From an uncultured Streptomycetaceae bacterium (GTDB taxonomy: Bacteria > Pseudomonadota > Gammaproteobacteria > Burkholderiales > SG8-41), in assembly GCA_964521405.1 (NCBI GenBank), contig CAZFRR010000176.1, forward strand, positions 16,285 through 80,284: a stretch of DNA of 64,000 nt, read 5' to 3'. A model generated the notes under the pieces. It had not been told where the DNA came from. It ran no database searches and saw only the letters and a list, made by a program, of their open reading frames with translations. Below, in pieces: positions 10,344-64,000 of the stretch (positions are counted from its first letter, which is position 1; each line of letters begins with the position of its first letter). The translations under genes and the position numbers were made by a program.

Positions 10344-10406
10344 GATGCAACTATAACGCGGACGGGTGACATTGCGCTGACAGGCAAGGAGAAGGAATAA
10401 AATTCA

Positions 10407-36835: not shown

Positions 36836-36838
36836 CAT

Positions 36839-41676: not shown

Positions 41677-41876
41677 GTTCCGAGTTCCGAGTTCCGAGTT
41701 CCGAGTTCCGAGTTCCGAGTTCCGAGTTCCGAGTTCCGAGTTCCGAGTTCCGAGTTCCGGGTTCCAGGTTCAAAGTTCCAAGTGCGGAACTTCGAATTCC
41801 ACGTACGTCCAACCTTGAACCTTGAACCTTGAACCTTGAACCTTGAACTTGGAACCCGGAACCCGGAACCCGGAAC
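41677..41876. repeat. largest inverted heptamer array pair (GTTCCGA x11 perfect plus 4 variants / CTTGAAC-CCGGAAC-type x~9)
   Basis: Eleven exact GTTCCGA units at 41677-41753, then gttccgg, gttccag, gttcaaa, gttccaa. Centre 41782-41808. Right arm 41809-41876. The element abuts tRNA-Leu. Confidence 0.95.
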
Positions 41877-49950: not shown

Positions 49951-51090
49951 TTAGCGGCGCAGCGCGCGGTCGAGACCGAGCAGCAGCTCCTCGAAATCGT
50001 CGAGCGAATTGTAGCGCGGCGCCGCGGCGAGATGCGGCGTGACGATCGCGTTGCGGAAACCGAGCAGCGGGTCATCGGCGCGTCCCGGCGCGTCGTAATG
50101 GGGATCGAGGCCGAAGCCGCCGAGCCGGCCAGAGCGCAGCGCCTCGAGCAAGGCCTCGCGCTCCACCAGCGGCGGGCGCGAGATGTTGATGAGGATCGCG
50201 CCCGGCCTGATGAGCCCGAGTTCGCGCCGGCCGATGATGCCGCGCGTGGCGTCGCTGAACGGCAGGTGCAGGCTCACGAAGTCGCTCGTTGCCAGCAGCT
50301 CGTCAAGCGGAGCGTAGGCCGCGCCGAAACGCGTCTCCTCCAGCTTCGCGAGCTGGCGGCGCTGGGTGTAGACGATGCGCATGCCGAACGCTGCGGCGCG
50401 AAGCGCCACCTCGCGCCCGATCTCGCCGAAGCCGACGATGCCGATTTGTCTGCCGAACAGGTTGCGCGTGCCGGTGATGCGCGCCCAGTTCGCGTTGGCC
50501 GTGTGCTCGCGGTCGTACTTTGTGGGGGAAAAACCTGCCGCCTGCAGCTGCTCGACGCTGATGAGGCCCGCCGTCTCGTGGATCTTGCGCGCCAGGGCCA
50601 GCATCAGCCCGAACGCGTGCTCCGCGCAGGAAATGTTGGCGCGGCGCCGCAGGGTGAGAACCCGGATGCCGGCCCGGCGGCAGGCGGCGGCATCGATGCC
50701 CGACAGCACGGTACCGTATTTCTGAACGATGCGCAGCGTCTTGCCCGCGGCGGCGATCTCCTGTCTTCCGATGGTGAGCGATTCCGTGACCACGGCGGTG
50801 GCGCCGGGCAGAGCAGTGAGCAGCCCGGCCTGGTCCGTGACCAGACGCACCTCGGCGGGGTAGAGGCGCTTCAACCGCGCCCGCAGGCGAGCGCACCAGC
50901 CGGCGAAATCCGGCTCCTCGTGCGCGAAGAAGTGGGAAAACGCCGCCAGCCGCGCAGCGGGTGTCGCGGGGTCCAGGATCACCTGGATCAGGCGGGGGAA
51001 GGGGTCGTCTTCGACGACGACCACTGGTCGTCGCCCGTTGTTCGTTTCTCGTTTCTCGTTTCTCGCAAGCGGTTTCTTGCTTCTGTTCAT
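49951..51090 (-). CDS. D-isomer-specific 2-hydroxyacid dehydrogenase family protein
   Basis: NAD fold IGIVGFGEIGREVA, plus RGIIG..ILINISRPPLVEREALLEAL and DPH (catalytic His region). The N-terminal 15 codons are repeat-encoded. Confidence 0.8.
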   Translation of the reverse strand: MNRSKKPLARNEKRETNNGRRPVVVVEDDPFPRLIQVILDPATPAARLAAFSHFFAHEEPDFAGWCARLRARLKRLYPAEVRLVTDQAGLLTALPGATAVVTESLTIGRQEIAAAGKTLRIVQKYGTVLSGIDAAACRRAGIRVLTLRRRANISCAEHAFGLMLALARKIHETAGLISVEQLQAAGFSPTKYDREHTANANWARITGTRNLFGRQIGIVGFGEIGREVALRAAAFGMRIVYTQRRQLAKLEETRFGAAYAPLDELLATSDFVSLHLPFSDATRGIIGRRELGLIRPGAILINISRPPLVEREALLEALRSGRLGGFGLDPHYDAPGRADDPLLGFRNAIVTPHLAAAPRYNSLDDFEELLLGLDRALRR

Positions 51091-51156
51091 CGCGCTTGCC
51101 TTTAAGCGTTCCTGGTCACGAGCAACGAGTAACGAGAAACGAGCAACGAGTCACGC
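51036..51156. repeat. inverted heptamer arrays (CGTTKYT x4 / ACGAGNA x5) enclosing a start codon
   Basis: Left arm 51036-51066 lies inside the 5' end of the dehydrogenase ORF. Right arm 51116-51154 overlaps the stop of the AhpD-like gene. The ATG at 51090 sits in the spacer. Confidence 0.85.
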
Positions 51157-51681
51157 CTTATCAGGCTGAATGTCGAGCGCCCTCAGCAATCGCGCTTGCA
51201 TGTTGTAGGCGCCGGTCAACACCGTCAGTTCCAGTATTTCGCGCTCGCTGTAGTGCTGGCGCATCGCGTCGAATACGGCGTCCGCAACGGCGACGTCCTG
51301 CGTCATGGCATCGACGTATGCCAGCAGCGCGCTCTCCTTGTCGCCGTAGACGCCGGACTTGCGCCAGTCGCGCAGGGCTTCGACCTCGCGCGGCGCGATG
51401 CCGGCCGGGCCCGCGTACTGCGCTTCGTGGACTTTCCACACGTAGTCGCAGCCGGTCAAGGCGGCGACCCGCATGATGACGAGCTCCCGCGTCCGGTCGC
51501 CGAGGCCGGTCTGGAAACGCACCGCGTTGTTGTAATCGAACCACGCCGAGGCGAGGGTGGGCGTGTGGAGGAGCGCCTTGTAGAAAACATGCAGCTGGCC
51601 CCCGCGCGCACCGCGGATTTTCTTTGCGATCGCGGCGATCTCGGGCGTGGCGTTTTCGTCGATGAGGGAGATGCGGGCCAT
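51151..51681 (-). CDS. carboxymuconolactone decarboxylase / AhpD-like family protein
   Basis: Size and helix-rich CMD-like sequence, with RELVIMRVAALTGCDYVWKVH (CxxW/H-type region). Confidence 0.7.
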   Translation of the reverse strand: MARISLIDENATPEIAAIAKKIRGARGGQLHVFYKALLHTPTLASAWFDYNNAVRFQTGLGDRTRELVIMRVAALTGCDYVWKVHEAQYAGPAGIAPREVEALRDWRKSGVYGDKESALLAYVDAMTQDVAVADAVFDAMRQHYSEREILELTVLTGAYNMQARLLRALDIQPDKA

Positions 51682-51695
51682 ATGCTTGATGAGGC

Positions 51696-51785
51696 GTGAC
51701 TCGTGACTCGTTACTCGTTCTTCGTTATTCGTGTCTGGCGACTCGTGGGTGGATACCAGGAACGAGAAACGAGCAACGAGTCACG
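51696..51785. repeat. inverted heptamer arrays (GTKACTC-type x7 / ACGAGNA x4)
   Basis: gtgactc gtgactc gttactc gttcttc gttattc gtgtctg gcgactc pairs with ggaacgagaaacgagcaacgagtcacg. Confidence 0.85.
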
Positions 51786-51804
51786 GCGCGGTGGATCGGG
51801 ACGC

Positions 51805-53208
<1,404 letters not shown>

Positions 53209-53313: not shown

Positions 53314-54312
53314 ATGAAGCGGCAAATTCGGTGCGGGTGGCTCGCGCGAACCGTCCTGGTGTGCTGCATCTCGGCACTGGGTGCGGCGCAAGCGCCCGCT
53401 CAAACGTGGAGACCGGACAAGAACGTCGAGCTCATCATTCCGGGCGGCGCAGGGGGTGGCCAGGACCGCACCGCTCGCATCATGCAAAAAATCATGCTGG
53501 ACGGCCTCGTGCCCACCACCGTCACGGTAGTCAACCGGCCCGGCGGCGGCAGCAATCTTGCCTACATCCACTTGAACCAGTTCGCGGGGGACGGGCATTA
53601 CCTCGCGTCGGCGACGGCGACGCTCCTGACCAACTACCTACTGGGCACGAGCCCGCTCAATTACACGCATTTCACCCCCGTCAGCGTCCTCTACGGCGAG
53701 TACATCGGCTTCGCGGTGAGGGCCGACGGCCCGTTCAAGAGCGGCAGGGACATCATCGAGCGGATGAAGTCCGCGCCGGATTCAGTGTCGTTTGCTTTCG
53801 GCACCAGCGCCGGCAACGCCAACCACATCGGCATTGCATTGGTGTTGAAAGCGGCCGGTGTCGACCCCGCCCGGATGAAGACGGTGATCTTCAAGGCCTC
53901 GATCGAGGCCGCCAGCGCGCTGATGGGCGGGCACGTGGACGTGGTGGCGACGCCGATGTCCACCTATCTGCCGGTGCTGGGCACCGGCAAGCTGCGGATC
54001 GTCGCGATCGCCGCGCCGCAGCGCGTCGGCGGCAAGTTCGCCGACGTCCCGACCTGGAAGGAGCAAGACTATGACGCGGTGATGCCGAGCTTCCGCATGT
54101 TCATCGGCGCCAAGGGTCTCGACGCGCGGCAATTGCGCTACTGGGACGGCGTATTTGCCAAGCTCGCCGCCAGCGAGGAATGGAAGAAGGAGCTGGCCGC
54201 CAACGAGTGGCAAGGCTCGTACCTGAACAGCGCCGACAGCCTGCGTTACCTCGATGTCCAGGCGCAGTCCTACCGCAAGGTGCTGGCCGAGCTCGGGTTG
54301 GTAAAAAAATGA
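53314..54312 (+). CDS. Bug/TctC-family substrate-binding protein
   Basis: Signal peptide, then ELIIPGGAGGGQDRTAR..VVNRPGGGSNL. Confidence 0.85.
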   Translation: MKRQIRCGWLARTVLVCCISALGAAQAPAQTWRPDKNVELIIPGGAGGGQDRTARIMQKIMLDGLVPTTVTVVNRPGGGSNLAYIHLNQFAGDGHYLASATATLLTNYLLGTSPLNYTHFTPVSVLYGEYIGFAVRADGPFKSGRDIIERMKSAPDSVSFAFGTSAGNANHIGIALVLKAAGVDPARMKTVIFKASIEAASALMGGHVDVVATPMSTYLPVLGTGKLRIVAIAAPQRVGGKFADVPTWKEQDYDAVMPSFRMFIGAKGLDARQLRYWDGVFAKLAASEEWKKELAANEWQGSYLNSADSLRYLDVQAQSYRKVLAELGLVKK

Positions 54313-54501: not shown

Positions 54502-55200
54502 TCAAGTGGTATGGCGCTTGAGCAGATCGGTGTACTGCCGCGCGCCGCGAGCGATGATGTTGGTGGTGCGGACGTTCAGCCAGCGCACGCCGTTCGACAG
54601 CAGCCACGGCATGCGCTGCTCCCAGTTGGTGAGAACGTTGAGGCCGGCGGTCTTGCCGCCCTTGACGACCCGCGCGATCGCTTTTTCGAGCATCGCGGTG
54701 ACTTCCGGGTGTTCCGGCTGGCCCGGGAAACCCATGGCCAGCGCCACGTCGTTGACTCCGATGTTGATCACGTCGACGCCGGGCACCGCGGCGATCTCGT
54801 CTATCCTCTCGATTGCAGCCGGCGTCTCGACCATGATGATGACGATCTTGTCGGCGTGGTCCTTGGGCCGCGCGTAGCGAACGATGTCGACCATCCTGCG
54901 CGCGGTCGCCCCGTCCTCGACGTGCGGCACCATGATGCCGTCCACGCCGCAGTCGAAATAGCGCGTGATCAGCCCCGCGTCGTTCAACCACGGGCGCGCC
55001 ACCGAGGCGATGCCCGCCAGCCGCGCCGCGCGCGTCATCTCCTCGATACGCTCGAAATCGTAGCTCATGCGCTCGGCGTCTATCCACACCACGTCCAGGC
55101 CAAGCCCGCCCAGGAACTCGACCAGGCGCGGCGAGGTGAAATCCGGATTGAACATCGTGACCACCTGGCCGGCGGCCAGCTTCTGCTTGATCCTGTTCAT
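54502..55200 (-). CDS. HpcH/HpaI-family aldolase / citrate-lyase-beta-like protein
   Basis: LGLDVVWIDAE(R) and MVETPAAIERIDEIAAVPGVDVINIGVNDV are family blocks. Start at MNRIKQKL. Confidence 0.8.
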   Translation of the reverse strand: MNRIKQKLAAGQVVTMFNPDFTSPRLVEFLGGLGLDVVWIDAERMSYDFERIEEMTRAARLAGIASVARPWLNDAGLITRYFDCGVDGIMVPHVEDGATARRMVDIVRYARPKDHADKIVIIMVETPAAIERIDEIAAVPGVDVINIGVNDVALAMGFPGQPEHPEVTAMLEKAIARVVKGGKTAGLNVLTNWEQRMPWLLSNGVRWLNVRTTNIIARGARQYTDLLKRHTT

Positions 55201-55312: not shown

Positions 55313-56656
55313 ATGACCGCCGCGAAAACGCTTGCCGAATTCGCCGTCAATCTGAAATACGAAGCCATCCCGCCGGAAGTCATCGAGCGCGCCAAGGACT
55401 GCATCATCGACACGGTCGGCGCCTGCGCCTTCGGCTCCCAGATGCCGTGGACGCAAATCGTCATCGAGCACGGCAAGCGCAACAGCGCGCCCGGTGAATG
55501 CAGCGTGTTCGGCACGCCCGTCAAGCTGCGCGCGCCGTTTGCCTGCCTCGCCAACGGCGCATCGGCGCACGCCTTCGAGCTCGATGCCCTGTGCGAGCCG
55601 AGCGTCGGCATCCATCCCGGCGCCGCGTTGTGCGTGCCGGGACTCGCCCCCTCGCAGGGCCGCAAGGGCAACGGGCGCGCGCTGCTCTCCGCCGTCGTCG
55701 CCGGCTACGAGGTGCTGTATCGCATCGGCGACGCGGCGAACCAGTCGATCGAGAAGGTCGGTTTCCATTCGCCGGGGGTGATCGGCGCGTTCGGCACCGC
55801 GGTGGTGATCGGCCGGCTGTTCGAGATCAGCGCGGAGAAGATGGCGCATGCGCTCGGCATCGCAGGCTCGCTCGGCTCCGGGCTGATGGAGTTTTCGAGG
55901 ACGGGCGGTATGGTGAAGCGCCTGCATCTCGGCCGCTCGGCGGAAAGCGGTTTCATGGCGGCGGTGCTGGCGCGAGACGGCTACACCGGTCCCGCGGGCG
56001 TATTCGAGGGCAAGTACGGCTTCCTCAACACGTTCTGCCGCAACGCGGAGCCGGCGCGCCTGACGCAGGAGCTCGGCACGACGTGGCACGTGATGAAGAC
56101 CAAGATCAAGCGCTATTCCTGCCACGCGACCTCACAGGTCCCGGTAACGCTCGCGCTCGACCTCAAGGCGCAGCACCAGCTCGCCGGTGACGACGTCGCG
56201 GGCATCACCATTGCCGCCAACGAGAAAACGGTGAGCCATCACGCCATCAACGAGCCGCAGGACATGACGATGGCGCAGTACAGCACGCCGTTCAACGTCG
56301 CGCTCGCGCTCTACCTGGACCCGATGGACCCGCGGTCGTTTTCCGAGAAGAGCCTTGCCGACCCGAAGATCCGCGCGCTGGCGAAGGGCGCCAAGGTCGA
56401 GCTCTACCCGGGCGCATCGAGCCCTGTGGCGCAGGATTGCCGGGTCACTTTCAAGTTGAAGAACGGCAAGGAAGTGACCGCGCAGGGCAACAATTTCAAG
56501 GGCACGCCGACGATGCCGCTCTCGCGCGACGAGCTGCGCGAGAAATTCCTCAAGCTCACCGCGCACAAGGACCGCGCGAAGGCGGACCGGCTGTTCTCGC
56601 AGCTTGCGGACGCGGAGAAGGTGGCGGACTTCAGCACCCTCGATTTCGCGCTCTAA
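55313..56656 (+). CDS. MmgE/PrpD-family protein (copy A)
   Basis: LAEFAVNLKYEAIPPEVIERAKDCIIDTVG.., HAFELD and KRYSCHA are PrpD-fold blocks. Confidence 0.85.
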   Translation: MTAAKTLAEFAVNLKYEAIPPEVIERAKDCIIDTVGACAFGSQMPWTQIVIEHGKRNSAPGECSVFGTPVKLRAPFACLANGASAHAFELDALCEPSVGIHPGAALCVPGLAPSQGRKGNGRALLSAVVAGYEVLYRIGDAANQSIEKVGFHSPGVIGAFGTAVVIGRLFEISAEKMAHALGIAGSLGSGLMEFSRTGGMVKRLHLGRSAESGFMAAVLARDGYTGPAGVFEGKYGFLNTFCRNAEPARLTQELGTTWHVMKTKIKRYSCHATSQVPVTLALDLKAQHQLAGDDVAGITIAANEKTVSHHAINEPQDMTMAQYSTPFNVALALYLDPMDPRSFSEKSLADPKIRALAKGAKVELYPGASSPVAQDCRVTFKLKNGKEVTAQGNNFKGTPTMPLSRDELREKFLKLTAHKDRAKADRLFSQLADAEKVADFSTLDFAL

Positions 56657-56689
56657 GCATTACTCCTGTAACAACCCCGGAGGCGGGCC

Positions 56690-57295
56690 ATGGCAAACAA
56701 GGAAACGATAGGCGGCGTCAGCGTTTATCTCCCGACGGGAGAATTAGCGACGGGCGCAGCGCACCTCGCGCCACGACTGAAGACGCTACGTGGCGCCCGC
56801 GTCGGCATACTCGACAACTGCAAAGAATTTGCCGACATCGTGCTGCGCGGCGTAGCCGAGGTCCTCGAGCGCGAATACGGCGCGCAGGTGAAATTCTGGC
56901 GCAAATCCTACCTGGGGATTCCTTCGCCTTTCGCGCAAGTGATGGCAAAGGAGTGCGACGCCGTCATCAACGGCGTCGGCCACTGAGGGTCCTCGACACC
57001 CTGGACCGCGCGTGACGCGGTCAACCTCGAGAACCTCGGAACCCCGACTGTAACTGTCATCAGCACCGCCTTCGCCGCGCTCGGGCAGGTGACCGGCGAG
57101 GGTGCGGGACACGCGAGCCTGCCCATCGTCGTCGTGCCGCACCCGGTCGGCGATCGTGACGAAAACCTCATCCGGCAGAGGGGCGCGGACATCGCGCGAG
57201 AGTGCGTGCGCGTGCTCACGACACCGGTCGAGGAGCTGTCACGCGAGTTCAAGGACAAGCGGCATCCGCTTCCTCGCGCCGTCATGCCCCGCTGA
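56690..57295 (+). CDS. candidate selenoprotein, UxxC-family variant (U-G-S-S), 201 codons with TGA at codon 99 (copy A)
   Basis: Track ORFs 56690-56986 and 57089-57295 are in the same frame and are separated only by the TGA at 56984-56986. Both halves align with copy B: LDN.KE.ADI upstream, U-G-S-x-T...D.V..E..G.P...AF...PHPV downstream. Confidence 0.6.
57004..57022 (+). promoter_or_regulatory. candidate bacterial SECIS hairpin (copy A)
   Basis: GACCGCG-cguga-CGCGGUC, a perfect 7-bp stem starting 17 nt after the TGA, with G and U in the apical loop. Confidence 0.45.
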
Positions 57296-57305
57296 ACGAG
57301 CGCCG

Positions 57306-58358
57306 ATGAAGCCTGAAATGACCCCGATTGCGGAGACCGACGAGTCCTACGACCGCATCAACGATGCCTTCTACGAGCGCGGCTGGACCGACGGCCTGCC
57401 TATTGTGCCGCCGACCGAGGCGCGGGTGCGGGCGATGCTGGCCGGCATGCCGGGGCGCGACGCGGACGACCTGGTGAGCGTGGTGCCGCCCAAGATGGGT
57501 CACGCGACGATGCGCCAGATCGCGATCAACGCCGTGATGGCGGGCTGCCGTCCGGAATACCTGCCGGTAGTGGTCGCTGCGCTGCAGGCGGTTTCCGAGC
57601 CCGCCTACGGGCTTTCCCACCGGCAGACGACGACGCACGCGGGCGCGCCGCTCATCATCGTCAACGGCCCGATCGCGAAGCGCCTGAAGATCAACGGCGG
57701 GCGCGGGTTATTCGGGCCGGGCTGGCGGGCCAACGCGACCATCGGCCGGGCGCTGCGGCTGGTCCTCGTCAACGTCGGCGGCGCGGGGCCGGACGTGGAC
57801 GCGTCGCAAACCGGCCATCCCGGCAAGTACACCTATTGCATCGCCGAGTTCGAGGATGCCAACCCCTGGGAGCCGCTGCACGTCGAGCGCGGCTTCCGGC
57901 GCGAGCAGAGCGTCGTCACCGTGGTGAACACGGAAGCGCCGCATAGCATGACGGAAAACGTGCAGACTGACCCGGTCGAAATCATGCGCACGTTCGCGTC
58001 CTCAATGGCGACGCTGGGCGTGAATAATCTCTATTCGCAGGGCCACCCGGTGCTGGTGCTGGGCCTCGAGCATGTGCACCATCTCTCGGCAGCGGGCTGG
58101 AGCAAGATGGACGTGAAGCGCGCGCTGTTCGAGATGGCCCGGCAGCCCTGGGGGCTCATGAAGAACCGCGGCAAGTCGAAGGGGCCGCGCTTCCCGGAAT
58201 TCGTCGACCAGAACGACGACAACTCCATGGTCCCGATCCTGTGGGAAGCGAAGGACCTCATATTGATCGTGGGCGGCGGCGCCGGCGGCAAGTCGATGTT
58301 CCTGCCGACGGCCGGCGGGCAGAGCCTGAGCGTGTCGAAGGCAATCGAAGAAAGATGA
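57306..58358 (+). CDS. conserved protein of unknown function, partner of the TGA gene (copy A, 350 aa)
   Basis: Paralog of 61884-62903. Shared blocks: W(T/S)DG.P.V.PTE.RVR.MLAG, MAGC(R/K)PEYLPV, IVNGP, FGPG(W/F)RAN..IGRA.RL.L.N.GG. The stop overlaps the next start (ATGA). Confidence 0.8.
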   Translation: MKPEMTPIAETDESYDRINDAFYERGWTDGLPIVPPTEARVRAMLAGMPGRDADDLVSVVPPKMGHATMRQIAINAVMAGCRPEYLPVVVAALQAVSEPAYGLSHRQTTTHAGAPLIIVNGPIAKRLKINGGRGLFGPGWRANATIGRALRLVLVNVGGAGPDVDASQTGHPGKYTYCIAEFEDANPWEPLHVERGFRREQSVVTVVNTEAPHSMTENVQTDPVEIMRTFASSMATLGVNNLYSQGHPVLVLGLEHVHHLSAAGWSKMDVKRALFEMARQPWGLMKNRGKSKGPRFPEFVDQNDDNSMVPILWEAKDLILIVGGGAGGKSMFLPTAGGQSLSVSKAIEER

Positions 58359-59383
58359 CGAACCTGGAGAATGGAACGACGAGGTGGAAGCGTGTGGGGC
58401 GCGTCGCATGCGTGCGGCTGGCGATCGCCGTGGCGCTTTGCGCGGTCGTGCCGGCGCCCGCCTTCGCGCAGTCCGGCTGGAAACCGGAAAGTACCGTGGA
58501 GCTGATCGTGCCGTCGGGGCCCGGCGGCGGCACCGATCACACGGCGCGGGTCGTGCAGCAGGTCCTGCAACAGAAGCAACTGGTGAGCGTGCCGGTGGCG
58601 GTGGTCAACAAGACCGGCGGCGGCGGAACGCTGGCGCTGTCCTACCTCAACCAGTTCCGGGGCAATGCGCACTACCTGCACCTGGCATCGGCGGTGCTGC
58701 TGACGAGCCACATCGTCGGCCGCACGCCCATCAACTACACGGATCTCACGCCGGTTGCGCTGCTGCAGAGCGAATACGTGGTGCTGGCGGTCAAAGCCGA
58801 TTCATCGCTCAAGAACGCCCATGACCTGGTGGCGCGCCTGAAGCAGGATCCCGCCGCGCTGAGTATTTCCGTGGGCACCAGCTTCGGCGGCGCCAACCAT
58901 TCCGCGATCGCCGCCGTGGCGCGTAGCGCAGGCATCGATTCCCGCAAGCTCAAGACGGTGGTATTCAAGTCATCGTCGGAAGCGGCGCTCGCCGCGCTCG
59001 GCGGGCACGTGGACGTTGTGTCAGCGAGCGCGTCCCAGGTGCTCACCCACGTCCGGTCGGGCGCTCTGCGTCTCATCGGCGTGACGTCACCGGCGAGGCT
59101 GAAAGGGGACCTCGCCACGGTGCCGACGCTGAAGGAGCAGGGCATCAACGTCGAGGTCAACAACTTCCGCATGCTGGTCGGACCGAAGGACCTCACCACG
59201 CCGCAGCTCGCCTATTGGGACCAGGTTCTCGCGAAGATGGTGCAGGCCGAGGAATGGAAGAAGGACCTCGAACGGGATGTGGTCGAGGACACCTACCTGA
59301 ACAGCCGCGACATCCGCAAGTATCTCGACTCCGAATACGCCGAGCTGAAGAGCCTGCTGATCGAGATGGGGCTCGCCAGGTAG
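58355..59383 (+). CDS. Bug/TctC-family substrate-binding protein
   Basis: Signal peptide ...VVPAPAFAQ, then ELIVPSGPGGGTDHTAR..VVNKTGGGGTLA. Confidence 0.85.
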   Translation: MTNLENGTTRWKRVGRVACVRLAIAVALCAVVPAPAFAQSGWKPESTVELIVPSGPGGGTDHTARVVQQVLQQKQLVSVPVAVVNKTGGGGTLALSYLNQFRGNAHYLHLASAVLLTSHIVGRTPINYTDLTPVALLQSEYVVLAVKADSSLKNAHDLVARLKQDPAALSISVGTSFGGANHSAIAAVARSAGIDSRKLKTVVFKSSSEAALAALGGHVDVVSASASQVLTHVRSGALRLIGVTSPARLKGDLATVPTLKEQGINVEVNNFRMLVGPKDLTTPQLAYWDQVLAKMVQAEEWKKDLERDVVEDTYLNSRDIRKYLDSEYAELKSLLIEMGLAR

Positions 59384-59425
59384 CGTAGCGGCGCGGATTG
59401 CCCGCGCCCCGATAAATCATCCGGG

Positions 59426-60823
59426 ATGGACATGAAAACCAACGATGCCAGGGAGCCGCTCGCCGCTCATGTCGCGGCGTTCGTGACGAAAACGCGCCAT
59501 GCCGGCCTGCCTGCCGAGACGGCGCGCGTCGTGAAGAAGCACATGCTCGATACGCTTGCGTGCGGCCTCGCCGGCGTGCCCGCGGAGGGCAGCGACATCG
59601 TGCGGCGCTACATCGAGCGCCTGGGATGCAGTGGCAGCGCGACCGTGTTCGGCACGGCGCAGCAGGCGGCCCCGCGGTTCGCGGCCCTGGCCAACGCCAC
59701 CGCGATGCACGCCGACGACTTCGACGACACTTACCATCCGACGCGATTTCACCCCACGGCCCCCGTGCTGTCCGCCGTGTGTGCCGTGGGCGAGGAAAAC
59801 GGCGCTTCCGGTGCCGAGGTGCTGGCGGCAGTCGCGGTCGGCACCGAGGTCTCCCTGAAACTCAGTCACACCATCGACCAGCAGCATTACCTGCGCGGCT
59901 TCCACATGACCAGCACCTGCGGTGTGTTCGGCGCCACAGCGGGCGTATGCAACCTGCTCCGGCTGTCCACTGATGCCACAACACGCGCCATCGGTATCGC
60001 CGGCAGCCACTCCGCCGGAGTGCGCGAGAACTTCGGCACGATGGTGAAGCCCTTGCACTCGGGGCGCGCCGCTGAGAACGCCGTGTTTGCGGCCTCACTC
60101 GCGGCAATGGATTTCACGGCGTCGCCGACGATCCTCGAGGGCGACCGCGGCTATTTCATGACGGGCGCCGGGGGCTACAATGCCGACGAGCTGGTCGGCA
60201 AACTCGGCAACCCGTGGAACTACGTTGCCAGGGGCGTGGCGATCAAGCCGTATCCCTGCGGCAACCTCCAGCAGCCGGCCATGGACAAGTTGCGGGATCT
60301 CGTCGTGGAACACGACATCAAGCCGGGGCAGGTCGAGCGCCTCGCGGTGAAGAGCCACCGCCTGATGCCGCTCAACCTCACTTACCACCGGCCGGTGACG
60401 GGGCTGGAAGGCAAGTTCAGCATGGAATTCAGCCTCGCCTCGATCCTCGTGCTACGGCGCGCCGGCCTCGCCGAGTACAGCGATGCGGTCGTGAACCGCC
60501 CCGACATCCAGGATGCGATAGGCAGGATCGACTACACCGTGTTCAGCGACGAGGAAGCCGAGGCGAAGGGCTACACGCTGCTCACCACCTTCCTCGACAT
60601 CAAGTTGAAGGACGGGCGGACCCTTTCCGCGCGGGTGGACGCGGCCAAGGGCAGTGCCACGCTTCCCATGAGCGAGGAAGACGTCGCGCGCAAGTTCCGC
60701 GAGTGCGCGGAGTTCGCAGGCTTGCCCGGCGGGAGGGCCGGGAAGATCATCGATCTCGTTCTCAAGCTCGAGGATGTGCGCGACATACGCGACCTGACGC
60801 GGCTCATCGGGACGGCACACTGA
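59426..60823 (+). CDS. MmgE/PrpD-family protein (copy B)
   Basis: LAAHVAAFVTKTRHAGLPAETARVVKKHMLDTLACG.., HADDFDD and IKPYPCG are PrpD-fold blocks. Confidence 0.85.
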   Translation: MDMKTNDAREPLAAHVAAFVTKTRHAGLPAETARVVKKHMLDTLACGLAGVPAEGSDIVRRYIERLGCSGSATVFGTAQQAAPRFAALANATAMHADDFDDTYHPTRFHPTAPVLSAVCAVGEENGASGAEVLAAVAVGTEVSLKLSHTIDQQHYLRGFHMTSTCGVFGATAGVCNLLRLSTDATTRAIGIAGSHSAGVRENFGTMVKPLHSGRAAENAVFAASLAAMDFTASPTILEGDRGYFMTGAGGYNADELVGKLGNPWNYVARGVAIKPYPCGNLQQPAMDKLRDLVVEHDIKPGQVERLAVKSHRLMPLNLTYHRPVTGLEGKFSMEFSLASILVLRRAGLAEYSDAVVNRPDIQDAIGRIDYTVFSDEEAEAKGYTLLTTFLDIKLKDGRTLSARVDAAKGSATLPMSEEDVARKFRECAEFAGLPGGRAGKIIDLVLKLEDVRDIRDLTRLIGTAH

Positions 60824-60881
60824 GCCTGCAATGCGGGGGCCGGATCGACAGCGTGCCCAGGCGCCAGCAGAGGAAAGAAAA

Positions 60882-61868
60882 ATGAACGCGAGCTTCAAAT
60901 TCAAGTCAGCCGCCCGCATCGTTTTCATGGCGTTTGCCTGCTGCGGCGTGTCCGGCGTGCAGGCGCAGGCGTATCCGTCCAAAATCGTGCGACTGGTTCT
61001 GCCGTTCCCGCCGGGTGGCGGCACGGACGTGGTTGGTCGCCTGCTGGCGCAGAAGCTCGGCCAGGCGCTGGGCCAGCAGGTTATCGTGGACAATCGCGCG
61101 GGCGCCGGCGGGCGCATTGGCGCCGAGCTGGTCGCGAGATCAGCGCCGGACGGATACACGCTGCTCCTCGCCGGCAGCAGCGTCATGGCAACGGCGCCGG
61201 CGCTGTATGCGAAGCTGCCGTTCGACATGCCGAAGGACTTCGCCCCGATATCGCTGGTGGCATACACTGCATACGTGCTGGTCGTGCATCCGTCCGTACC
61301 CGCGAGAATGGTGAAGGAACTGATCGCGCTCGCGAAATCGCGGCCCGGCCGGCTCACGTTCGCGTCGTCGGGCGCCGGCGGAGCGGCGCATCTTTCGGGG
61401 GAGCTGTTCAGCGCGATGGCCGGCGTGAAAATGATCCACGTGCCGTACAAGGGGAGCTCTCCGGGAACGCTGTCGGTGATCGCCGGCGAGACCGACCTGA
61501 TGTTCAGCAATACCGTAGCGGCACTGCCTTCGGTGAAGAGCGGCCGGCTGCGGACGCTAGGCGTCACCGCTCTACGGCGCTCCACGATCATGCCCGATGT
61601 GCCGACGGTGGCCGAATCGGGGCTTCCGGGGTTCGAGGTGCAGCAGAACTACGGTTTGCTGGCGCCGGCGGGCACGCCGCGGGAAATCGTGATCCGGCTG
61701 AACCAGGAGGTTGGTAAGGTGATGCGGACGGAGGACGCGAGGAGCAGGCTCCTCGTGGACGGCTCGGAGGCCAAGTTCAGCACTCCCGAGGAACTGGAGA
61801 AGATGATCACGGCCGAGATCGCAAAGTGGTCGAAGGTCATCAAGCAGGCGGGCATCAAGGAAGAGTGA
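60882..61868 (+). CDS. Bug/TctC-family substrate-binding protein
   Basis: Signal peptide MNASFKFKSAARIVFMAFACCGVSGVQA, then VRLVLPFPPGGGTDVVGRL..VVDNRAGAGGRIG. Confidence 0.85.
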   Translation: MNASFKFKSAARIVFMAFACCGVSGVQAQAYPSKIVRLVLPFPPGGGTDVVGRLLAQKLGQALGQQVIVDNRAGAGGRIGAELVARSAPDGYTLLLAGSSVMATAPALYAKLPFDMPKDFAPISLVAYTAYVLVVHPSVPARMVKELIALAKSRPGRLTFASSGAGGAAHLSGELFSAMAGVKMIHVPYKGSSPGTLSVIAGETDLMFSNTVAALPSVKSGRLRTLGVTALRRSTIMPDVPTVAESGLPGFEVQQNYGLLAPAGTPREIVIRLNQEVGKVMRTEDARSRLLVDGSEAKFSTPEELEKMITAEIAKWSKVIKQAGIKEE

Positions 61869-61883
61869 GGTGGAGGAGGCGAT

Positions 61884-62903
61884 TTGAGCGCTGTGGTTGA
61901 TCCATTCGAGTTTTTCCTGGAAAAGGAGTGGTCGGACGGGTATCCGGTCGTCACGCCGACCGAAGAGCGCGTCCGCTGGATGCTGGCCGGGACGCGGCGT
62001 GACCCGGACGAGCTGGTGGGCCTGATACCGCCGGCGATGGAGCCGGCGACGGTTCGCACCGTCGCCATCCACGCGCTGATGGCAGGCTGCAAGCCGGAAT
62101 ACCTGCCGGTCGCGCTGGGCGCGGTGAAGCACATCATTCGCGAGGAATTCAATATGGGCGGCGTGCAGTGCACAATGCACGGCGTTGCGCCGCTGATGAT
62201 CGTGAACGGCCCCTATGCGCAGACCATCGGGCTGCACGGCGGCGCCGGCTGCTTCGGTCCGGGGTTTCGCGCCAATACCAGCATCGGCCGCGCGATCCGG
62301 CTGATGCTGCTCAATCTCGGCGGCGGCATATCGGGACGCGCCTCGGCGACCGTGTTCAGCTCGCCGTTCCGCTATACCGCCTGCATTACCGAAAACATGG
62401 CATCGAGCCCATGGGAGAGCCTCGCGGTGTCGCGAGGCTATTCGCCGCACGACAACGTGATCACGTTCGCGATGGCGGAGAACCCGCGCCTGCACTTCGA
62501 CGACGTCAGCACCGAGCCCGAGCGGCTGCTGCGGGGGATCGGTGACGCCATGACGGCGCCCGGCTCGTGGAACATGTGGTTCGTTTCGGACATGGTCGTC
62601 GCGATGAGCCCGCAACACGCGAAGTTGTGCGCGGACGCCGGCATGAGCCGCGCCGACGTGGTCGGGCGCCTGAGCCAGCTCGCCGTGCGCCGGCAATCCG
62701 GGGTGAAGTACGGCGGCAACTGGCGGCCCGAGCGCGCACGAGCGATGGGCATCGACCCCGACGACGAGAATGCCCTCATCAAGGCCGTCAAGGACCCGGG
62801 GCGGCTGCATCTCATCGTCGCGGGCGGCAACGGCCCGATCACCGCCGTGTGCCACGGCTGGAACGAGACCAGCCGTGCAGTGCACGGCACCTACGAGGTA
62901 TGA
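61884..62903 (+). CDS. conserved protein of unknown function, partner of the TGA gene (copy B, 339 aa)
   Basis: Paralog of 57306-58358 (see the shared blocks there). TTG start at 61884 or GTG at 61893. Confidence 0.8.
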   Translation: MSAVVDPFEFFLEKEWSDGYPVVTPTEERVRWMLAGTRRDPDELVGLIPPAMEPATVRTVAIHALMAGCKPEYLPVALGAVKHIIREEFNMGGVQCTMHGVAPLMIVNGPYAQTIGLHGGAGCFGPGFRANTSIGRAIRLMLLNLGGGISGRASATVFSSPFRYTACITENMASSPWESLAVSRGYSPHDNVITFAMAENPRLHFDDVSTEPERLLRGIGDAMTAPGSWNMWFVSDMVVAMSPQHAKLCADAGMSRADVVGRLSQLAVRRQSGVKYGGNWRPERARAMGIDPDDENALIKAVKDPGRLHLIVAGGNGPITAVCHGWNETSRAVHGTYEV

Positions 62904-62984
62904 GGGCGGAGGGATGAGGGATGCGCGATGCGGGTTTCTCTCATCTCGTATCCCGGATCTCGTATCCCGTATCACGATTCACGC
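62902..62984. repeat. inverted heptamer arrays (GAGGGAT-type x5 / GTATCCC-type x6)
   Basis: gagggcg gagggat gagggat gcgcgat gcgggtt pairs with tcatctc gtatccc ggatctc gtatccc gtatcac gattcac. The element starts on the upstream TGA. Confidence 0.8.
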
Positions 62985-62997
62985 TTTTTATTAGGAA

Positions 62998-63534
62998 ATG
63001 AACATGACGAATGACCTGGGCTTCATCGACCCCACCGCGGGCGGCAACAAGGCGAGGATCCCGCTGGCGCCGCGGCCGATGGACCTCGCCGGCAAGGTGG
63101 TGGGCCTCCTCGATAACACCAAGGAGCAGGCCGATATTATTTTCGAAACCGTCGCGGACGTCCTGCGCAGCCGCTACGGAGTGGCTAAAGTGATCATCCG
63201 GCGCAAGGAGGCCTTCTCCCGGCCCGCGACCGAAGCGCTGCTGAACGAGATGGCGAAGGAGGTGCAGGTGGCCGCCGCCGCCCTCGGCGGGTGAGGGTCC
63301 TGCACGTTGTGCAGTGTGCACGACACGGTGGAGTTCGAGAAACGCGGCATACCCGCCACGATGTTTCTCACGCAGGCGTTCAAGAACGCGGCGGTCTATC
63401 AATTCCGCGGCAAGGGCATGGACGGGCACCCGTTCATCGAGCTGCCGCATCCGGTGAGCAACCTCACGCCCGGCGAGATGCGCGCGCTCACGCTGAAATA
63501 CGTCGAGCAGATGGTCAGGCAGCTGACTGCGTGA
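62998..63534 (+). CDS. candidate selenoprotein with U-G-S-C motif, 178 codons with TGA at codon 99 (copy B)
   Basis: Track ORFs 62998-63294 and 63307-63534 share a frame. The junction reads ...AAALGG-TGA-GSCTLCSVHDTVEFEKRGIPATMFLTQAF...LPHPVSN. U-x-x-C resembles a CxxC redox motif. Confidence 0.65.
63300..63321 (+). promoter_or_regulatory. candidate SECIS region (copy B): two alternative hairpins
   Basis: CUGCAC-guu-GUGCAG (63300-63314) or GUGCA-gug-UGCAC (63309-63321). They lie 6-15 nt after the TGA, and the apical loops contain G and U. Confidence 0.4.
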
Positions 63535-63560
63535 GGGGCGAGGGATGAGGGATTAGTGAC
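63533..63560. repeat. tandem heptamers (GAGGGGC, GAGGGAT x2, TAGTGAC)
   Basis: Starts inside the TGA stop of the preceding gene. Confidence 0.7.
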
Positions 63561-63565
63561 GAAGG

Positions 63566-64000
63566 ATGGGAAAGCCGACATCAGTCCGTGCAGTAGCAAA
63601 ACCGTCGAACCGGTTTTATTTAGTTTTGCACTCCACGGCGATCGTTGCTCTCGCCGCGCTTCCAATCCCGATGACGAGTCCGAGTGCGGTGGCGCAAAAC
63701 TACCCTTCGCGGCCGCTGCGGGTGGTGGTGCCGTTCGCGCCGGGCGGTGCGGTGGATCTCGTCGCGCGGACCGTCGCGCCGAAGCTCTCCGAGGCGCTGG
63801 GCCAGCCGGTGGTGGTGGACAACCGCGGCGGCGCCGGGGGCACGATAGGCACCGATATCGTCGCGAAGGCGCGGCCGGACGGTCACACGCTGCTCGTAGC
63901 CAGCATGGGCGTTGCGGTCAACGCGGTGCTCTATCCGAAGCTGCCGTACGACACGCTGAAGGACCTCGCGCCGGTCACCTCGCTGGGCGAGCAGCCCAAC
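63566..64000 (+). CDS. Bug/TctC-family substrate-binding protein (5' part; runs off the window end)
   Basis: Not in the ORF track (no stop). My translation: MGKPTSVRAVAKPSNRFYLVLHSTAIVALAALPIPMTSPSAVAQNYPSRPLRVVVPFAPGGAVDLVARTVAPKLSEALGQPVVVDNRGGAGGTIG... Confidence 0.75.
   Translation, partial: MGKPTSVRAVAKPSNRFYLVLHSTAIVALAALPIPMTSPSAVAQNYPSRPLRVVVPFAPGGAVDLVARTVAPKLSEALGQPVVVDNRGGAGGTIGTDIVAKARPDGHTLLVASMGVAVNAVLYPKLPYDTLKDLAPVTSLGEQPN

What the first reader, a model, noticed from the sequence alone, without database searches (positions are those of the whole stretch)
55313..64000. Duplicated four-family gene set (MmgE/PrpD + Bug binding protein + TGA-interrupted UxxC/S gene + unknown 340-aa protein): candidate uncharacterised carboxylate-processing redox system
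Two adjacent sets contain the same four families in shuffled order.

- Set A: PrpD-like 55313-56656, TGA gene 56690-57295, unknown 57306-58358, Bug 58355-59383 (ATGA start/stop overlap).
- Set B: PrpD-like 59426-60823, Bug 60882-61868, unknown paralog 61884-62903, TGA gene 62998-63534, then another Bug from 63566.
- An HpcH/HpaI-type aldolase (54502-55200, minus strand) and a further Bug gene (53314-54312) lie directly upstream.

The small TGA gene and the 340-aa protein stay adjacent in both sets even though their order is inverted, which argues that they work together. The PrpD fold covers dehydratases, decarboxylases and isomerases of di- and tricarboxylates, and Bug proteins bind carboxylates. 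My inference is uptake plus conversion of an unknown carboxylate, with a selenol/thiol redox step carried out by the UxxC protein and its partner. The partner has a conserved Cys in MAGC(R/K)PEYLPV. I know of no characterised pathway with this composition.
Basis: partly seen in the sequence, partly recalled or inferred. Interest (0 to 1): 0.85.

Follow-up and report, generated by a model that had tools for sequence, protein, structure and literature searches.

The report
Orphan selenoprotein UGSC with obligate partner
The two stop-codon-interrupted genes are real selenocysteine proteins of the named but functionally unknown UGSC family, each paired with an uncatalogued 340-residue protein that nearly always accompanies or is fused to UGSC across bacteria and archaea, so the pair is probably one selenium-dependent redox enzyme of unknown substrate.

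Summary
In detail: all genes lie at the stated coordinates and belong to the stated families.

The small TGA genes are not new. They match Pfam PF24696 and NCBIfam NF041046, the 'UGSC family (seleno)protein'. This family has been known from metagenomes since 2007-2008 and is still uncharacterised.
- The TGA is conserved in 79 of 80 homologs.
- A hairpin with compensatory base changes follows it (a SECIS element).

The 340-aa partner has no Pfam, NCBIfam or PDB relative, and its confident AlphaFold model has no credible fold match.

The pair is a near-obligate two-gene module.
- A UGSC gene is adjacent in about 70 of 80 partner-seeded loci from many phyla.
- None of the 88 UGSC-seeded metagenome contigs long enough to judge lacks the partner.
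- 48 of the 150 best partner clusters are fused to UGSC.

Other fusions and operon neighbours are thiol-redox modules: thioredoxin reductase, Prx-like domains and the FTR catalytic chain.

The PrpD-like and Bug genes are not conserved parts of the module. They accompany it only in some Betaproteobacteria.

The two sets represent two ancient clades with fixed, opposite gene orders. They are not a local shuffle.

Best reading: a two-subunit Sec/Cys reductase embedded in organic-acid catabolic operons. The substrate is unknown.

The parts
53314..54312 (+). Bug/TctC-type periplasmic carboxylate-binding protein (context gene)
   Evidence: Pfam PF03401, E 6e-22. It is 45% identical to Bug A.
54502..55200 (-). 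HpcH/HpaI-family aldolase (context gene). The ORF could extend to 55257.
   Evidence: Pfam PF03328, E 4e-22. The NCBIfam HpaI and GarL models score far below their cut-offs.
55313..56656 (+). MmgE/PrpD-family protein A. It is not a 2-methylcitrate dehydratase ortholog.
   Evidence: Pfam PF03972 plus PF19305. The PrpD equivalog scores 37 bits against a cut-off of 950. The nearest solved structures are cis-aconitate decarboxylase and IDS epimerase, E about 1e-30.
56690..57295 (+). UGSC-family selenoprotein A. Sec codon at 56984-56986, motif U-G-S-S-T-P-W with no resolving Cys. It belongs to the 'W' clade, in which UGSC lies upstream of the partner.
   Evidence: Pfam PF24696, E 2e-42. NCBIfam NF041046 scores 103 bits against a cut-off of 125. 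Translation. Clade and gene order.
57004..57022 (+). Candidate SECIS hairpin of UGSC A: a 7-bp stem with loop CGUGA, starting 20 nt after the UGA.
   Evidence: Fold of -26.2 kcal/mol, z -2.35. The same hairpin, with a bulge, is present in ortholog L061.
57306..58358 (+). Partner protein A (350 aa), from an uncatalogued family. Conserved residues include MAGC, the GPGxRAN/IGRA motifs, Cys and Glu.
   Evidence: No Pfam or NCBIfam hit. 39% identical to partner B. 73% identical to the partner in L061.
58355..59383 (+). Bug/TctC binding protein A. Its start overlaps the partner A stop (ATGA).
   Evidence: Pfam PF03401, E 3e-26. Overlap seen.
59426..60823 (+). MmgE/PrpD-family protein B
   Evidence: Pfam PF03972 plus PF19305. 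The nearest solved structure is IDS epimerase, E 3e-60.
60882..61868 (+). Bug/TctC binding protein B
   Evidence: Pfam PF03401, E 8e-73.
61884..62903 (+). Partner protein B (339 aa). Near-invariant family residues are D18, C69, N131, R136, C167, E170 and W177.
   Evidence: No Pfam or NCBIfam hit. 5902 homologs, all named 'hypothetical protein'. AlphaFold pLDDT 95.4 with no credible PDB fold match. Conservation.
62998..63534 (+). UGSC-family selenoprotein B. Sec codon at 63292-63294, motif U-G-S-C-T-L-C. It belongs to the 'C' clade, in which the partner lies upstream.
   Evidence: Pfam PF24696, E 6e-47. NCBIfam NF041046 scores 131 bits against a cut-off of 125. Weak hit to GrdB TIGR01917. Clade and gene order.
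63306..63324 (+). SECIS hairpin of UGSC B: stem at columns 15-21/27-33 after the UGA, loop AGUGU.
   Evidence: Across 71 homologs the five inner pairs are paired in 100% of sequences. One pair is swapped CG to GC in 18 sequences. Loop G23 and U24 are invariant. No shuffle out of 500 reached the observed covariation score.
63566..64000 (+). Third Bug/TctC gene, cut off by the window end.
   Evidence: Pfam PF03401, E 2e-21. Translation.

Best explanation
Each set contains one copy of a widespread two-component enzyme, which in many other organisms is a single fused protein.

**The small subunit (UGSC).** This is a selenocysteine protein with a Rossmann/flavodoxin-like alpha/beta fold. In the model of the natural fusion the Sec-equivalent residue lies directly after a beta-strand and just before a helix, in a U-G-S-C(-T-x-C/W) motif. 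The family is a remote relative of the Sec-bearing region of the 'selenoprotein B' components of glycine, sarcosine, betaine and D-proline reductases.

**The 340-aa partner.** I take this to be the substrate-binding catalytic subunit. Its fold has no detectable known relative. It has an almost invariant Cys (MAGC), an invariant Glu, an invariant Arg/Asn cluster and a usually conserved second Cys.

**Proposed cycle (inferred, not shown).**
1. The partner's Cys reacts with the substrate.
2. The oxidised or covalently loaded Cys is resolved by the selenolate of UGSC.
3. The resulting Se-S bond is passed to the neighbouring Cys of the UxxC motif.
4. A thioredoxin-reductase-type system re-reduces it with NAD(P)H.

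**In this window.** Two ancient, divergent versions (clade W = set A, clade C = set B) sit in one co-directional, tightly spaced gene string. That string also holds PrpD-like enzymes (IDS-epimerase/cis-aconitate-decarboxylase-like) and Bug binding proteins. Each pair therefore probably reduces a different imported organic acid or its PrpD-made derivative. That link is lineage-specific and is the weakest step of the argument.
For: **The Sec genes are real.**
- The Pfam/NCBIfam UGSC match spans the TGA.
- TGA is conserved in 79 of 80 homologs. The one haloarchaeal homolog has Cys instead.
- A SECIS hairpin shows compensatory changes.
- In Paracoccus ferrooxidans, selB lies about 3 kb from the pair.

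**The pair is one unit.**
- A UGSC gene is adjacent on the same strand in about 70 of 80 partner-seeded loci. These come from Beta-, Alpha- and Gammaproteobacteria, Chloroflexota, Methylomirabilota, Acidimicrobiia, Myxococcota and a haloarchaeon.
- Among 119 UGSC-seeded metagenome loci, the partner lies within 400 bp in 85 and within 558 bp in 3 more. No contig with room on both sides lacks it.
- 48 of the 150 best partner representatives are fused to UGSC.
- The AlphaFold model of a natural fusion has pLDDT 92.7 and pTM 0.93 despite a disordered linker.

**The chemistry is redox.**
- 13 of 24 diverse UGSC proteins weakly hit GrdB. Others hit GrdF, GrdH or PrdB. Apart from two single weak hits in one member each, no other family is hit.
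- The partner is fused to a TrxR-like domain, with a Sec-UGSC gene immediately upstream.
- The partner is fused to AhpC/TSA-Redoxin domains and to the ferredoxin:thioredoxin reductase catalytic chain.
- A trxB gene sits in the operon in Variovorax SRS16 and in Roseovarius THAF8.

**The partner looks like a catalytic core.** Over 154 domains, E170 is conserved in 154, R136 in 153, N131 in 151, C69 in 149 and C167 in 134.

**The setting is catabolic.** Neighbours include LysR regulators, TTT/TRAP/ABC binding proteins, CoA-transferase III, enoyl-CoA hydratase, acyl-CoA dehydrogenase, SDR, FMN-dependent dehydrogenase, aconitase X and PrpD-like genes. Several paralogous pairs can occur per locus: L006, L011, L055 and this window.
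Against: - No substrate, product or cofactor is identified.
- No neighbour outside the pair is universal.
- A trxB-like gene lies near the pair in only 4 of about 200 loci.
- Model coordinates could not be inspected, so proximity between Sec and the partner Cys is not shown.
- C69 is replaced in 5 of 154 domains and C167 in 20 of 154.
- Set A's UGSC lacks the resolving Cys (UGSS), so the relay as written cannot hold unchanged for set A.
- Selenocysteine machinery is not in this window, and the source genome could not be searched.
- The roles could be reversed: Sec as the substrate-attacking nucleophile, as proposed for the glycine and D-proline reductases. The data do not separate the two.
Confidence: 0.55

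Rival explanations
1. An aerobic analog of the Stickland reductases. The UGSC Sec is itself the nucleophile that reductively cleaves a C-N (or C-O/C-S) bond alpha to a carboxylate, as proposed for the glycine and D-proline reductases. The partner would be the analog of PrdA/GrdE, binding and activating the substrate, possibly through a group derived from the invariant Gly-Cys. The PrpD-like enzyme (IDS-epimerase-like) would prepare an N-substituted or hydroxy polycarboxylate.
For: - UGSC proteins hit almost only the GrdB/GrdF/GrdH/PrdB models.
- The aligned stretches (UGSC residues 77-176 against TIGR01917 positions 328-420, and 81-121 against the GrdH model positions 329-369) include the UGSC Sec (residue 99).
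- Clade C carries U-x-x-C-x-x-C. From memory, this is the GrdB motif.
- G68-C69 is invariant in the partner.
- PrpD B is closest to IDS epimerase, which acts on a secondary-amine polycarboxylate.
- Opine/peptide-type binding proteins occur among the neighbours.
Against: - The partner shows no similarity to any Pfam family. That includes the GrdE/PrdA family: 0 of 69 members hit it even at E up to 10.
- In the model, C69 lies between two helices, not in the strand-turn typical of self-processing sites.
- The partner is also fused to generic thiol-redox domains.
- The UGSC scores against GrdB are about 19 bits against a cut-off of 602.
Confidence: 0.2
2. A general antioxidant or repair oxidoreductase, for example a peroxide, sulfoxide or disulfide reductase. 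Its position next to PrpD and Bug genes here would be incidental.
For: - Partner fusions to AhpC/TSA-Redoxin domains.
- UGSC is among the most abundant selenoproteins in surface-water metagenomes (PMC2398784).
- No neighbour is universally conserved.
Against: - Up to three divergent pairs per locus, and tandem partner genes (L004, L008, L006, L055). This pattern argues for substrate diversification.
- The pair recurrently sits behind LysR regulators together with solute-binding proteins and CoA-transferase or dehydratase genes in cultured hosts.
- The invariant Arg/Asn cluster suggests a small anionic substrate.
Confidence: 0.15
3. A non-redox Cys-based enzyme, such as an isomerase, racemase or lyase that uses C69 and C167. 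UGSC would only keep the catalytic cysteines reduced, or would regulate the enzyme.
For: - Two conserved cysteines plus an invariant Glu in the partner.
- Epimerase-like PrpD genes in the context.
- UGSC-less architectures exist: 93 of 150 partner representatives are called alone, although most of those probably have a separate UGSC gene.
Against: - No informative contig has UGSC without the partner, and most partner-seeded loci carry an adjacent UGSC gene.
- Sec is retained in 79 of 80 homologs, which is costly for a mere protective role.
- TrxR fusions imply continuous electron flow.
- C167 is dispensable in 20 of 154 domains.
Confidence: 0.08
4. The TGA genes are pseudogenes or assembly errors, and the set is a decaying recent duplication.
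For: None beyond the presence of an in-frame stop codon.
Against: - TGA is conserved across phyla, followed by a covarying hairpin.
- The Pfam model spans the stop.
- The paralogs are 26-40% identical.
- Each has closer orthologs elsewhere: 87-94% for the partner of set B and 73% for the partner of set A.
Confidence: 0.01

Closest known systems
UGSC family (seleno)protein (Pfam PF24696; NCBIfam NF041046). Called the 'UGSC-containing protein' by Zhang and Gladyshev (2007-2008).
   Same: - Both TGA genes match the family models.
- They have Sec at the family's position and a SECIS hairpin.
- Cys forms occur in organisms such as haloarchaea.
- Sec forms far outnumber Cys forms, as in the GOS survey: 255 against 21.
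   Different: - Set A has UGSS instead of UGSC and falls below NCBIfam's equivalog cut-off (103 bits against 125).
- The family has no assigned function.
- The literature calls it 'Trx-like'. The AlphaFold model's structural matches are Rossmann/flavodoxin-like domains, not thioredoxin.
Selenoprotein B components of the glycine, sarcosine, betaine and D-proline reductases (GrdB, GrdF, GrdH, PrdB)
   Same: - A Sec in a U-x-x-C(-x-x-C) context within an alpha/beta domain.
- Consistent weak HMM hits whose aligned stretches include the Sec residue.
- A second, separately encoded subunit is required.
- A link to the thioredoxin system.
   Different: - Scores are far below the family cut-offs.
- UGSC has about 175 aa, against about 430 for GrdB and about 240 for PrdB (GrdB length from the NCBIfam model; PrdB from memory).
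- The partner is unrelated in sequence to GrdE/PrdA.
- No GrdA, GrdC or GrdD genes were noticed in the annotated regions examined; this was not tested systematically.
- Most hosts come from lineages that I take to be largely aerobic or facultative, based on general knowledge rather than a test here.
Thioredoxin-coupled Cys reductases that occur fused to their redox partners (for example methionine sulfoxide reductase-Trx fusions, AhpF/AhpC)
   Same: - A catalytic subunit with one key Cys and an optional second Cys.
- Modular fusion to Trx-fold, TrxR-like or FTR-like domains.
- An NAD(P)H-to-disulfide relay can be inferred.
   Different: - No sequence or fold similarity of the partner to any of them.
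- The relay module is a dedicated Sec protein with a non-thioredoxin fold.
MmgE/PrpD family (2-methylcitrate dehydratase, cis-aconitate decarboxylase, iminodisuccinate epimerase)
   Same: Both domains are present in both window copies. The closest solved structures are CAD/Irg1 and IDS epimerase.
   Different: They are not orthologs of PrpD itself (37-52 bits against a cut-off of 950). Their specificity is unknown. They are linked to the UGSC pair only in some Betaproteobacteria.

Membership tests
UGSC family (PF24696 / NF041046) | Match to the family HMM above the curated cut-off | tested here: met
   Pfam: 145 and 160 bits against a cut-off of 25 for A and B. NCBIfam: B scores 131, above 125. 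A scores 103, below 125. A therefore passes only the Pfam test.
UGSC family (PF24696 / NF041046) | U/C-G-S-C motif | tested here: met
   B has U-G-S-C. A has U-G-S-S, with the second Cys missing. The same is true of its ortholog in L061. The motif is therefore met for B and only partly met for A.
UGSC family (PF24696 / NF041046) | In-frame UGA decoded as Sec, with a SECIS hairpin downstream | tested here: met
   TGA in 79 of 80 homologs. The hairpin is 100% paired in its five inner pairs across 71 sequences, with compensatory swaps. Actual decoding as Sec cannot be tested here.
Glycine/sarcosine/betaine/D-proline reductase selenoprotein B (TIGR01917, TIGR01918, TIGR04483) | Match to the family HMMs at the curated cut-off | tested here: not met
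   Best score is 19 bits against a cut-off of 602. 13 of 24 UGSC proteins hit only weakly, best E 3e-4. This indicates remote homology, not membership.
Glycine/sarcosine/betaine/D-proline reductase selenoprotein B (TIGR01917, TIGR01918, TIGR04483) | Companion pyruvoyl proprotein (GrdE/PrdA) and, for the glycine reductase, GrdA/GrdC/GrdD | tested here: not met
   The partner has no Pfam hit at all, so none to the GrdE/PrdA family. The annotated neighbourhoods that I read list no such genes.
Thioredoxin-fold oxidoreductases (the literature describes UGSC as 'Trx-like') | Thioredoxin fold with CxxC/UxxC at a helix N-terminus | tested here: inconclusive
   In the model the Sec-equivalent residue lies just before a helix. 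However, the Foldseek matches are flavodoxin/Rossmann-like domains such as lumazine synthase, PTS IIB and NQO1. None is a thioredoxin, and all have E above 1e-3.
MmgE/PrpD family | N- and C-terminal MmgE/PrpD domains | tested here: met
   PF03972 at E about 1e-62 and PF19305 at E 1e-21 to 1e-24, for both copies.
2-methylcitrate dehydratase PrpD (equivalog) | Score above the equivalog cut-off | tested here: not met
   37 and 52 bits against a cut-off of 950.
Bug / TctC tripartite tricarboxylate transporter binding proteins | TctC domain | tested here: met
   PF03401 matches all four copies. No TctA/TctB membrane components were looked for.
Any catalogued family for the 340-aa partner | Significant match in Pfam-A, NCBIfam, PDB sequences or PDB folds | tested here: not met
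   - Pfam: 0 of 69 members match, even at E up to 10.
- NCBIfam: none.
- PDB profile search: best E 0.09, to GAPDH.
- Foldseek: best E 7e-3 with TM at most 0.30.

The most novel reading that the evidence does not exclude
UGSC plus its partner is a large, unrecognised class of selenoenzyme: more than 6000 partner clusters at 50% identity. Its catalytic subunit has a new fold. It would carry out thiol/selenol-driven reductive chemistry on organic acids in mostly aerobic heterotrophs (soil and groundwater Burkholderiales, Chloroflexota including Dehalococcoidia, Methylomirabilota, marine Alpha- and Gammaproteobacteria, haloarchaea). Functionally this would be an 'aerobic Stickland-type' reductase family whose paralogs have diversified by substrate.
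Probability: 0.35. Interest if true: 0.85.

Novelty: new variant of a known kind. Interest (0 to 1): 0.62.

Why it matters
UGSC has been listed among the most abundant prokaryotic selenoproteins in aquatic metagenomes since 2007-2008. A 2026 review still describes it as uncharacterised.

This analysis adds several concrete handles:
- UGSC is nearly always accompanied by, or fused to, one specific protein of unknown fold.
- Thioredoxin-reductase-type modules feed the pair.
- Two clades with fixed gene order exist.
- The pair is present in culturable bacteria and archaea, often on plasmids or chromids behind LysR regulators. Examples are Paracoccus versutus and P. ferrooxidans, Variovorax sp. 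SRS16, Roseovarius sp. THAF8, Vibrio europaeus, Sporomusa termitida and Natrinema.

Together these turn an orphan family into an experimentally approachable enzyme. They also flag a very large protein family that is missing from Pfam and NCBIfam.

Tried and rejected
1. **GAPDH-like Cys/His catalytic domain.** A PDB profile search gave a weak GAPDH hit (E 0.09) that placed MAGC near the GAPDH active-site Cys and QxTxH near its His. I rejected this. The His is present in only 56 of 154 domains, and Foldseek finds no GAPDH-like match.
2. **SelD/PurM-like, class I fumarase or Toblerone fold for the partner.** These are the best Foldseek hits, but with E at least 7e-3, probability at most 0.47 and TM at most 0.30. 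They are not credible.
3. **PrpD or aconitase X as an obligate third component.** PrpD is found only in L001, L007, L011, L058 and L064. AcnX is found only beside the fused genes of Vibrio and Sporomusa.
4. **A dedicated trxB as a regular neighbour.** It appears in only 4 of about 200 loci.
5. **Correlation between loss of the UGSC resolving Cys and the state of partner C69/C167.** There is no signal; nearly all pairs are UGSC plus C/C/E.
6. **Locating the source genome or a longer contig by exact protein look-up.** Nothing is on record.
7. **Protein-seeded scan of metagenomes with the UGSC alignment.** I replaced it with a DNA motif scan.
8. **Reading the 2008 'Unknown_1' fusion alignment.** It is held only as an image. 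Its identity with the partner family is therefore likely but unverified.
9. **Sec machinery in the window.** There is no tRNA-Sec, no Rfam hit other than tRNA-Leu, and no selB-like ORF.

Full report
**1. The observation**

- Translating 56690-57295 and 62998-63534 in one frame gives single in-frame TGA codons at 56984-56986 (GH-U-GSSTPW) and 63292-63294 (GG-U-GSCTLC).
- Both PrpD-like genes carry the MmgE/PrpD N- and C-terminal domains.
- The four Bug genes match the TctC family.
- The minus-strand gene is an HpcH/HpaI aldolase.
- The partner A stop overlaps the Bug A start in ATGA.

The two sets are very divergent. Identities are PrpD 26%, UGSC 38%, partner 39-40% and Bug 26%. This is not a recent duplication.

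**2. What the TGA genes are**

They belong to a named family: Pfam PF24696 'UGSC' (E 2e-42 and 6e-47) and NCBIfam NF041046 'UGSC family (seleno)protein'. On NCBIfam, set B scores 131 bits, above the cut-off of 125. Set A scores 103, below it.

The literature knows this family only from sequence.
- It was first mentioned as a selenoprotein of unknown function (PMC1976440).
[quoted passage not shown] A 'UGSC/Unknown_1' fusion was noted there (PMC2398784).
- It is still listed as uncharacterised in reviews from 2022 and 2026.

The Sec reading is strongly supported.
- In 80 UGSC homologs found next to partner genes in GTDB species genomes, the aligned codon is TGA in 79. It is Cys only in the haloarchaeon Natrialba.
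- Fourteen nucleotides after the UGA lies a hairpin. Its five inner base pairs are paired in all 71 aligned sequences.
- One pair is swapped CG to GC in 18 sequences, and another changes GC to AU in 3.
- The loop G and U are invariant.
- No shuffle out of 500 reaches the observed covariation, and slid registers collapse.
- Set A has a different, later hairpin (57004-57022; -26 kcal/mol, z -2.35), shared with its ortholog in L061.

No Sec machinery is present in the window. The source genome could not be retrieved. In Paracoccus ferrooxidans, selB lies about 3 kb from a Sec-UGSC/partner pair.

**3. The 340-aa partner**

It has no hit in Pfam or NCBIfam. None of 69 diverse members hits any Pfam family consistently, even at E up to 10.

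The family is nevertheless very large.
- 5902 hits among the scored candidates, all named 'hypothetical protein'.
- 6135 clusters at 50% identity with E at most 1e-3.

A PDB sequence-profile search gives nothing better than E 0.09. AlphaFold models are confident: pLDDT 95.4 and pTM 0.93 for window partner B. Foldseek against the PDB nevertheless finds no match with E at most 1e-3 and no TM above 0.30.

Conservation over 154 domains:

| Residue (partner B numbering) | Conserved in |
|---|---|
| E170 | 154 |
| R136 | 153 |
| G109 | 153 |
| W177 | 152 |
| N131 | 151 |
| D18 | 146 |
| C167 | 134 |

**4. The two genes form one unit**

*Partner-seeded test.* Eighty loci were fetched from one genome per species. 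They cover Beta-, Alpha- and Gammaproteobacteria, Chloroflexota/Dehalococcoidia, Methylomirabilota, Acidimicrobiia, Myxococcota, Binatia and a haloarchaeon.
- About 70 have a UGSC gene directly adjacent on the same strand.
- Several of the loci without one are contigs that end at the partner gene.

*Reciprocal, UGSC-seeded test.* A DNA motif covering the Sec codon and hairpin retrieved 120 metagenome contigs, of which 119 carry UGSC. The outcome:
- 85 have the partner within 400 bp.
- 3 have it within 445-558 bp.
- 31 are too short on at least one side to judge.
- None with more than 1.2 kb on both sides lacks it.

*Fusions.* Among the 150 best partner representatives:
- 45 have UGSC sequence fused upstream. 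This is either a full-length Cys form or the post-TGA fragment left by gene callers.
- 3 have the pre-TGA part fused downstream.
- 9 are tandem partner domains.
- Sequences are shown.

*Structure.* A natural fusion folds with pLDDT 92.7 and pTM 0.93 despite a disordered linker. That implies a defined interface between the two domains.

*Clades.* Gene order is a clade character.
- Loci with the order partner then UGSC have U-G-S-C-T-x-C in 98 of 105 cases.
- Loci with the order UGSC then partner have U-G-S-C-T-x-W in 56 of 62 cases.
- Set A (UGSSTPW, UGSC first) and set B (UGSCTLC, partner first) are one member of each clade. This explains the 'inverted order'.

**5. What kind of chemistry**

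UGSC proteins hit, weakly but almost exclusively, the selenoprotein B models of the glycine, sarcosine, betaine and D-proline reductases. 13 of 24 hit TIGR01917, and others hit GrdF, GrdH, PrdB or TIGR01918. The aligned stretches include the Sec residue.

The model of the UGSC domain is an alpha/beta domain in which the Sec-equivalent residue lies just after a strand and just before a helix. Its nearest structural neighbours are flavodoxin/Rossmann-like rather than thioredoxin, though none is significant.

The partner also occurs fused to other thiol-redox modules.
- A thioredoxin-reductase-like Pyr_redox_2 domain (P0206). On its contigs a Sec-UGSC gene lies immediately upstream, so the contig encodes TrxR-like, UGSC and partner modules together.
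- AhpC/TSA-Redoxin domains (P0211, P0233).
- The catalytic chain of ferredoxin:thioredoxin reductase (P0176).

In cultured bacteria a trxB gene sits in the same operon.
- Variovorax sp. SRS16: LysR, trxB, Bug, SDR, partner, UGSC in its Cys form.
- Roseovarius sp. THAF8: LysR, partner, UGSC, trxB.

Such a dedicated reductase is rare overall, in 4 of about 200 loci. Housekeeping systems would have to serve elsewhere.

I therefore read the pair as a Sec/Cys-based reductase whose oxidised form is recycled by a thioredoxin-type system. Two points remain inferred and unresolved:
- whether Sec attacks the substrate, as proposed for the glycine and D-proline reductases;
- or whether Sec resolves an intermediate on the partner's Cys69.

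**6. Context, and the 'four-family' claim**

Outside the pair, no neighbour family is universal. Recurrent neighbours are typical of organic-acid catabolism:
- SDR, CoA-transferase III, luciferase-like oxidoreductase, NHL-repeat protein, enoyl-CoA hydratase;
- FMN-dependent 2-hydroxyacid dehydrogenase, Zn-ADH, acyl-CoA dehydrogenase, ThDP enzymes, family-5 binding proteins;
- LysR regulators, TRAP/TTT transporters and aconitase X in annotated records.

PrpD-like genes occur near the pair only in betaproteobacterial loci: L001, L007, L011, L058 and L064. Among close orthologs of set B with enough flank, only 2 of 7 have one.

The window's PrpD-like proteins are nearest to cis-aconitate decarboxylase and IDS epimerase, not to PrpD.

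The conserved unit is therefore the two-gene pair. PrpD, Bug and the aldolase are a lineage-specific and plausible but unproven functional context. Multiple pairs per locus (L006, L011, L055, this window) and tandem partner genes (L004, L008) point to diversification by substrate.

**7. Verdict**

- The inference that the two genes work together is strongly supported.
- The redox idea is supported indirectly.
- The four-family system is not supported.

The TGA gene family is already named, but its function and its partner are not described in the literature and family databases searched here. The partner is a very large family absent from Pfam and NCBIfam, with no detectable structural relative.

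I rate this a new variant of a known kind: a thioredoxin-coupled Sec/Cys reductase that is a remote relative of the selenoprotein B components. Interest is moderate to high, because a long-standing orphan selenoprotein becomes experimentally approachable.

Noticed in passing
window 22507-22698, 40664-40809, 41677-41876, 31706-31805, 36837-36943, 10406-10427, 62943-62973 and others: Intergenic regions throughout the window carry tandem arrays of 7-nt units. Examples are GTTCCAA x9 followed by AACCTGG x14.6, and GTTCCGA x15 followed by AACCTTG x6.6 next to tRNA-Leu. They often come as two neighbouring arrays of roughly reverse-complementary heptamers. One such array (ATCCCGT x4.4) lies between partner B and UGSC B, and GAGGGATGAGGGAT copies lie either side of the UGSC B gene (at about 62910 and 63540).
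   Followed up: no
P0211, P0233, P0225: In fusions of a thioredoxin-fold domain to the partner, the linker carries a conserved P-G-C-G-[SA]-[KR] motif about 40 residues before the partner domain. It resembles the U-G-S-C motif of UGSC and, from memory, the G-C/U-G-C-K loop of selenophosphate synthetase. P0225 has this motif while its partner C69 is replaced by Ala.
   Followed up: partly
L202 4435-7088 and L203 487-3140: A Sec-UGSC gene (called as 99 aa plus 78 aa fragments) is directly followed by a partner-thioredoxin-reductase fusion of 695 aa. A single contig therefore encodes TrxR-like, UGSC and partner modules together.
   Followed up: yes
L004 4854-6963; L008 3132-6277 and 10170-10697: Two (L004) or three (L008) tandem partner genes occur with a single UGSC gene. 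In L008 the UGSC gene is about 4 kb away. One selenoprotein may serve several partner paralogs.
   Followed up: no
L206 4052-9339 (Vibrio europaeus plasmid); L207 2947-9546 (Sporomusa termitida plasmid): Fused UGSC-partner proteins (561 and 574 aa) lie next to aconitase X plus its DUF126 small subunit. In Vibrio an enolase-family gene is also adjacent. In Sporomusa there are a FAD-dependent oxidoreductase and an MFS transporter. This is a different dehydratase family in the place that PrpD-like genes occupy in the window.
   Followed up: partly
L208 6378-8035 and 11350-13125 (Paracoccus ferrooxidans pFER4): selB lies about 3 kb from a Sec-UGSC/partner pair on a 1.46-Mb replicon. DsrE, TusA and cysteine desulfurase genes lie just upstream.
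   Followed up: no
window 49951-53205, minus strand: Directly upstream of the locus are a D-2-hydroxyacid dehydrogenase (49951-51090), a carboxymuconolactone-decarboxylase/AhpD-like protein (51151-51681) and adenylosuccinate lyase (51805-53205). A further Bug gene lies at 48853-49749 on the minus strand. In Natrinema an adenylosuccinate-lyase-family gene also lies next to the pair.
   Followed up: no
window 63598-63617: A terminator-like hairpin followed by a T-rich run lies 30 nt inside the third Bug ORF as called from 63566. Either the true start is later or the hairpin is not a terminator.
   Followed up: no
window 56690-57295 (C-terminal tail, residues about 178-201): UGSC A ends in a tail (TTPVEELSREFKDKRHPLPRAVMPR). 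It aligns with similar C-terminal tails in several other UGSC homologs, and set A's ortholog in L061 reads through in frame as a fusion (538 aa). Set A therefore looks like a split version of a fused gene; the UGSC stop and the partner start are only 10 nt apart.
   Followed up: partly
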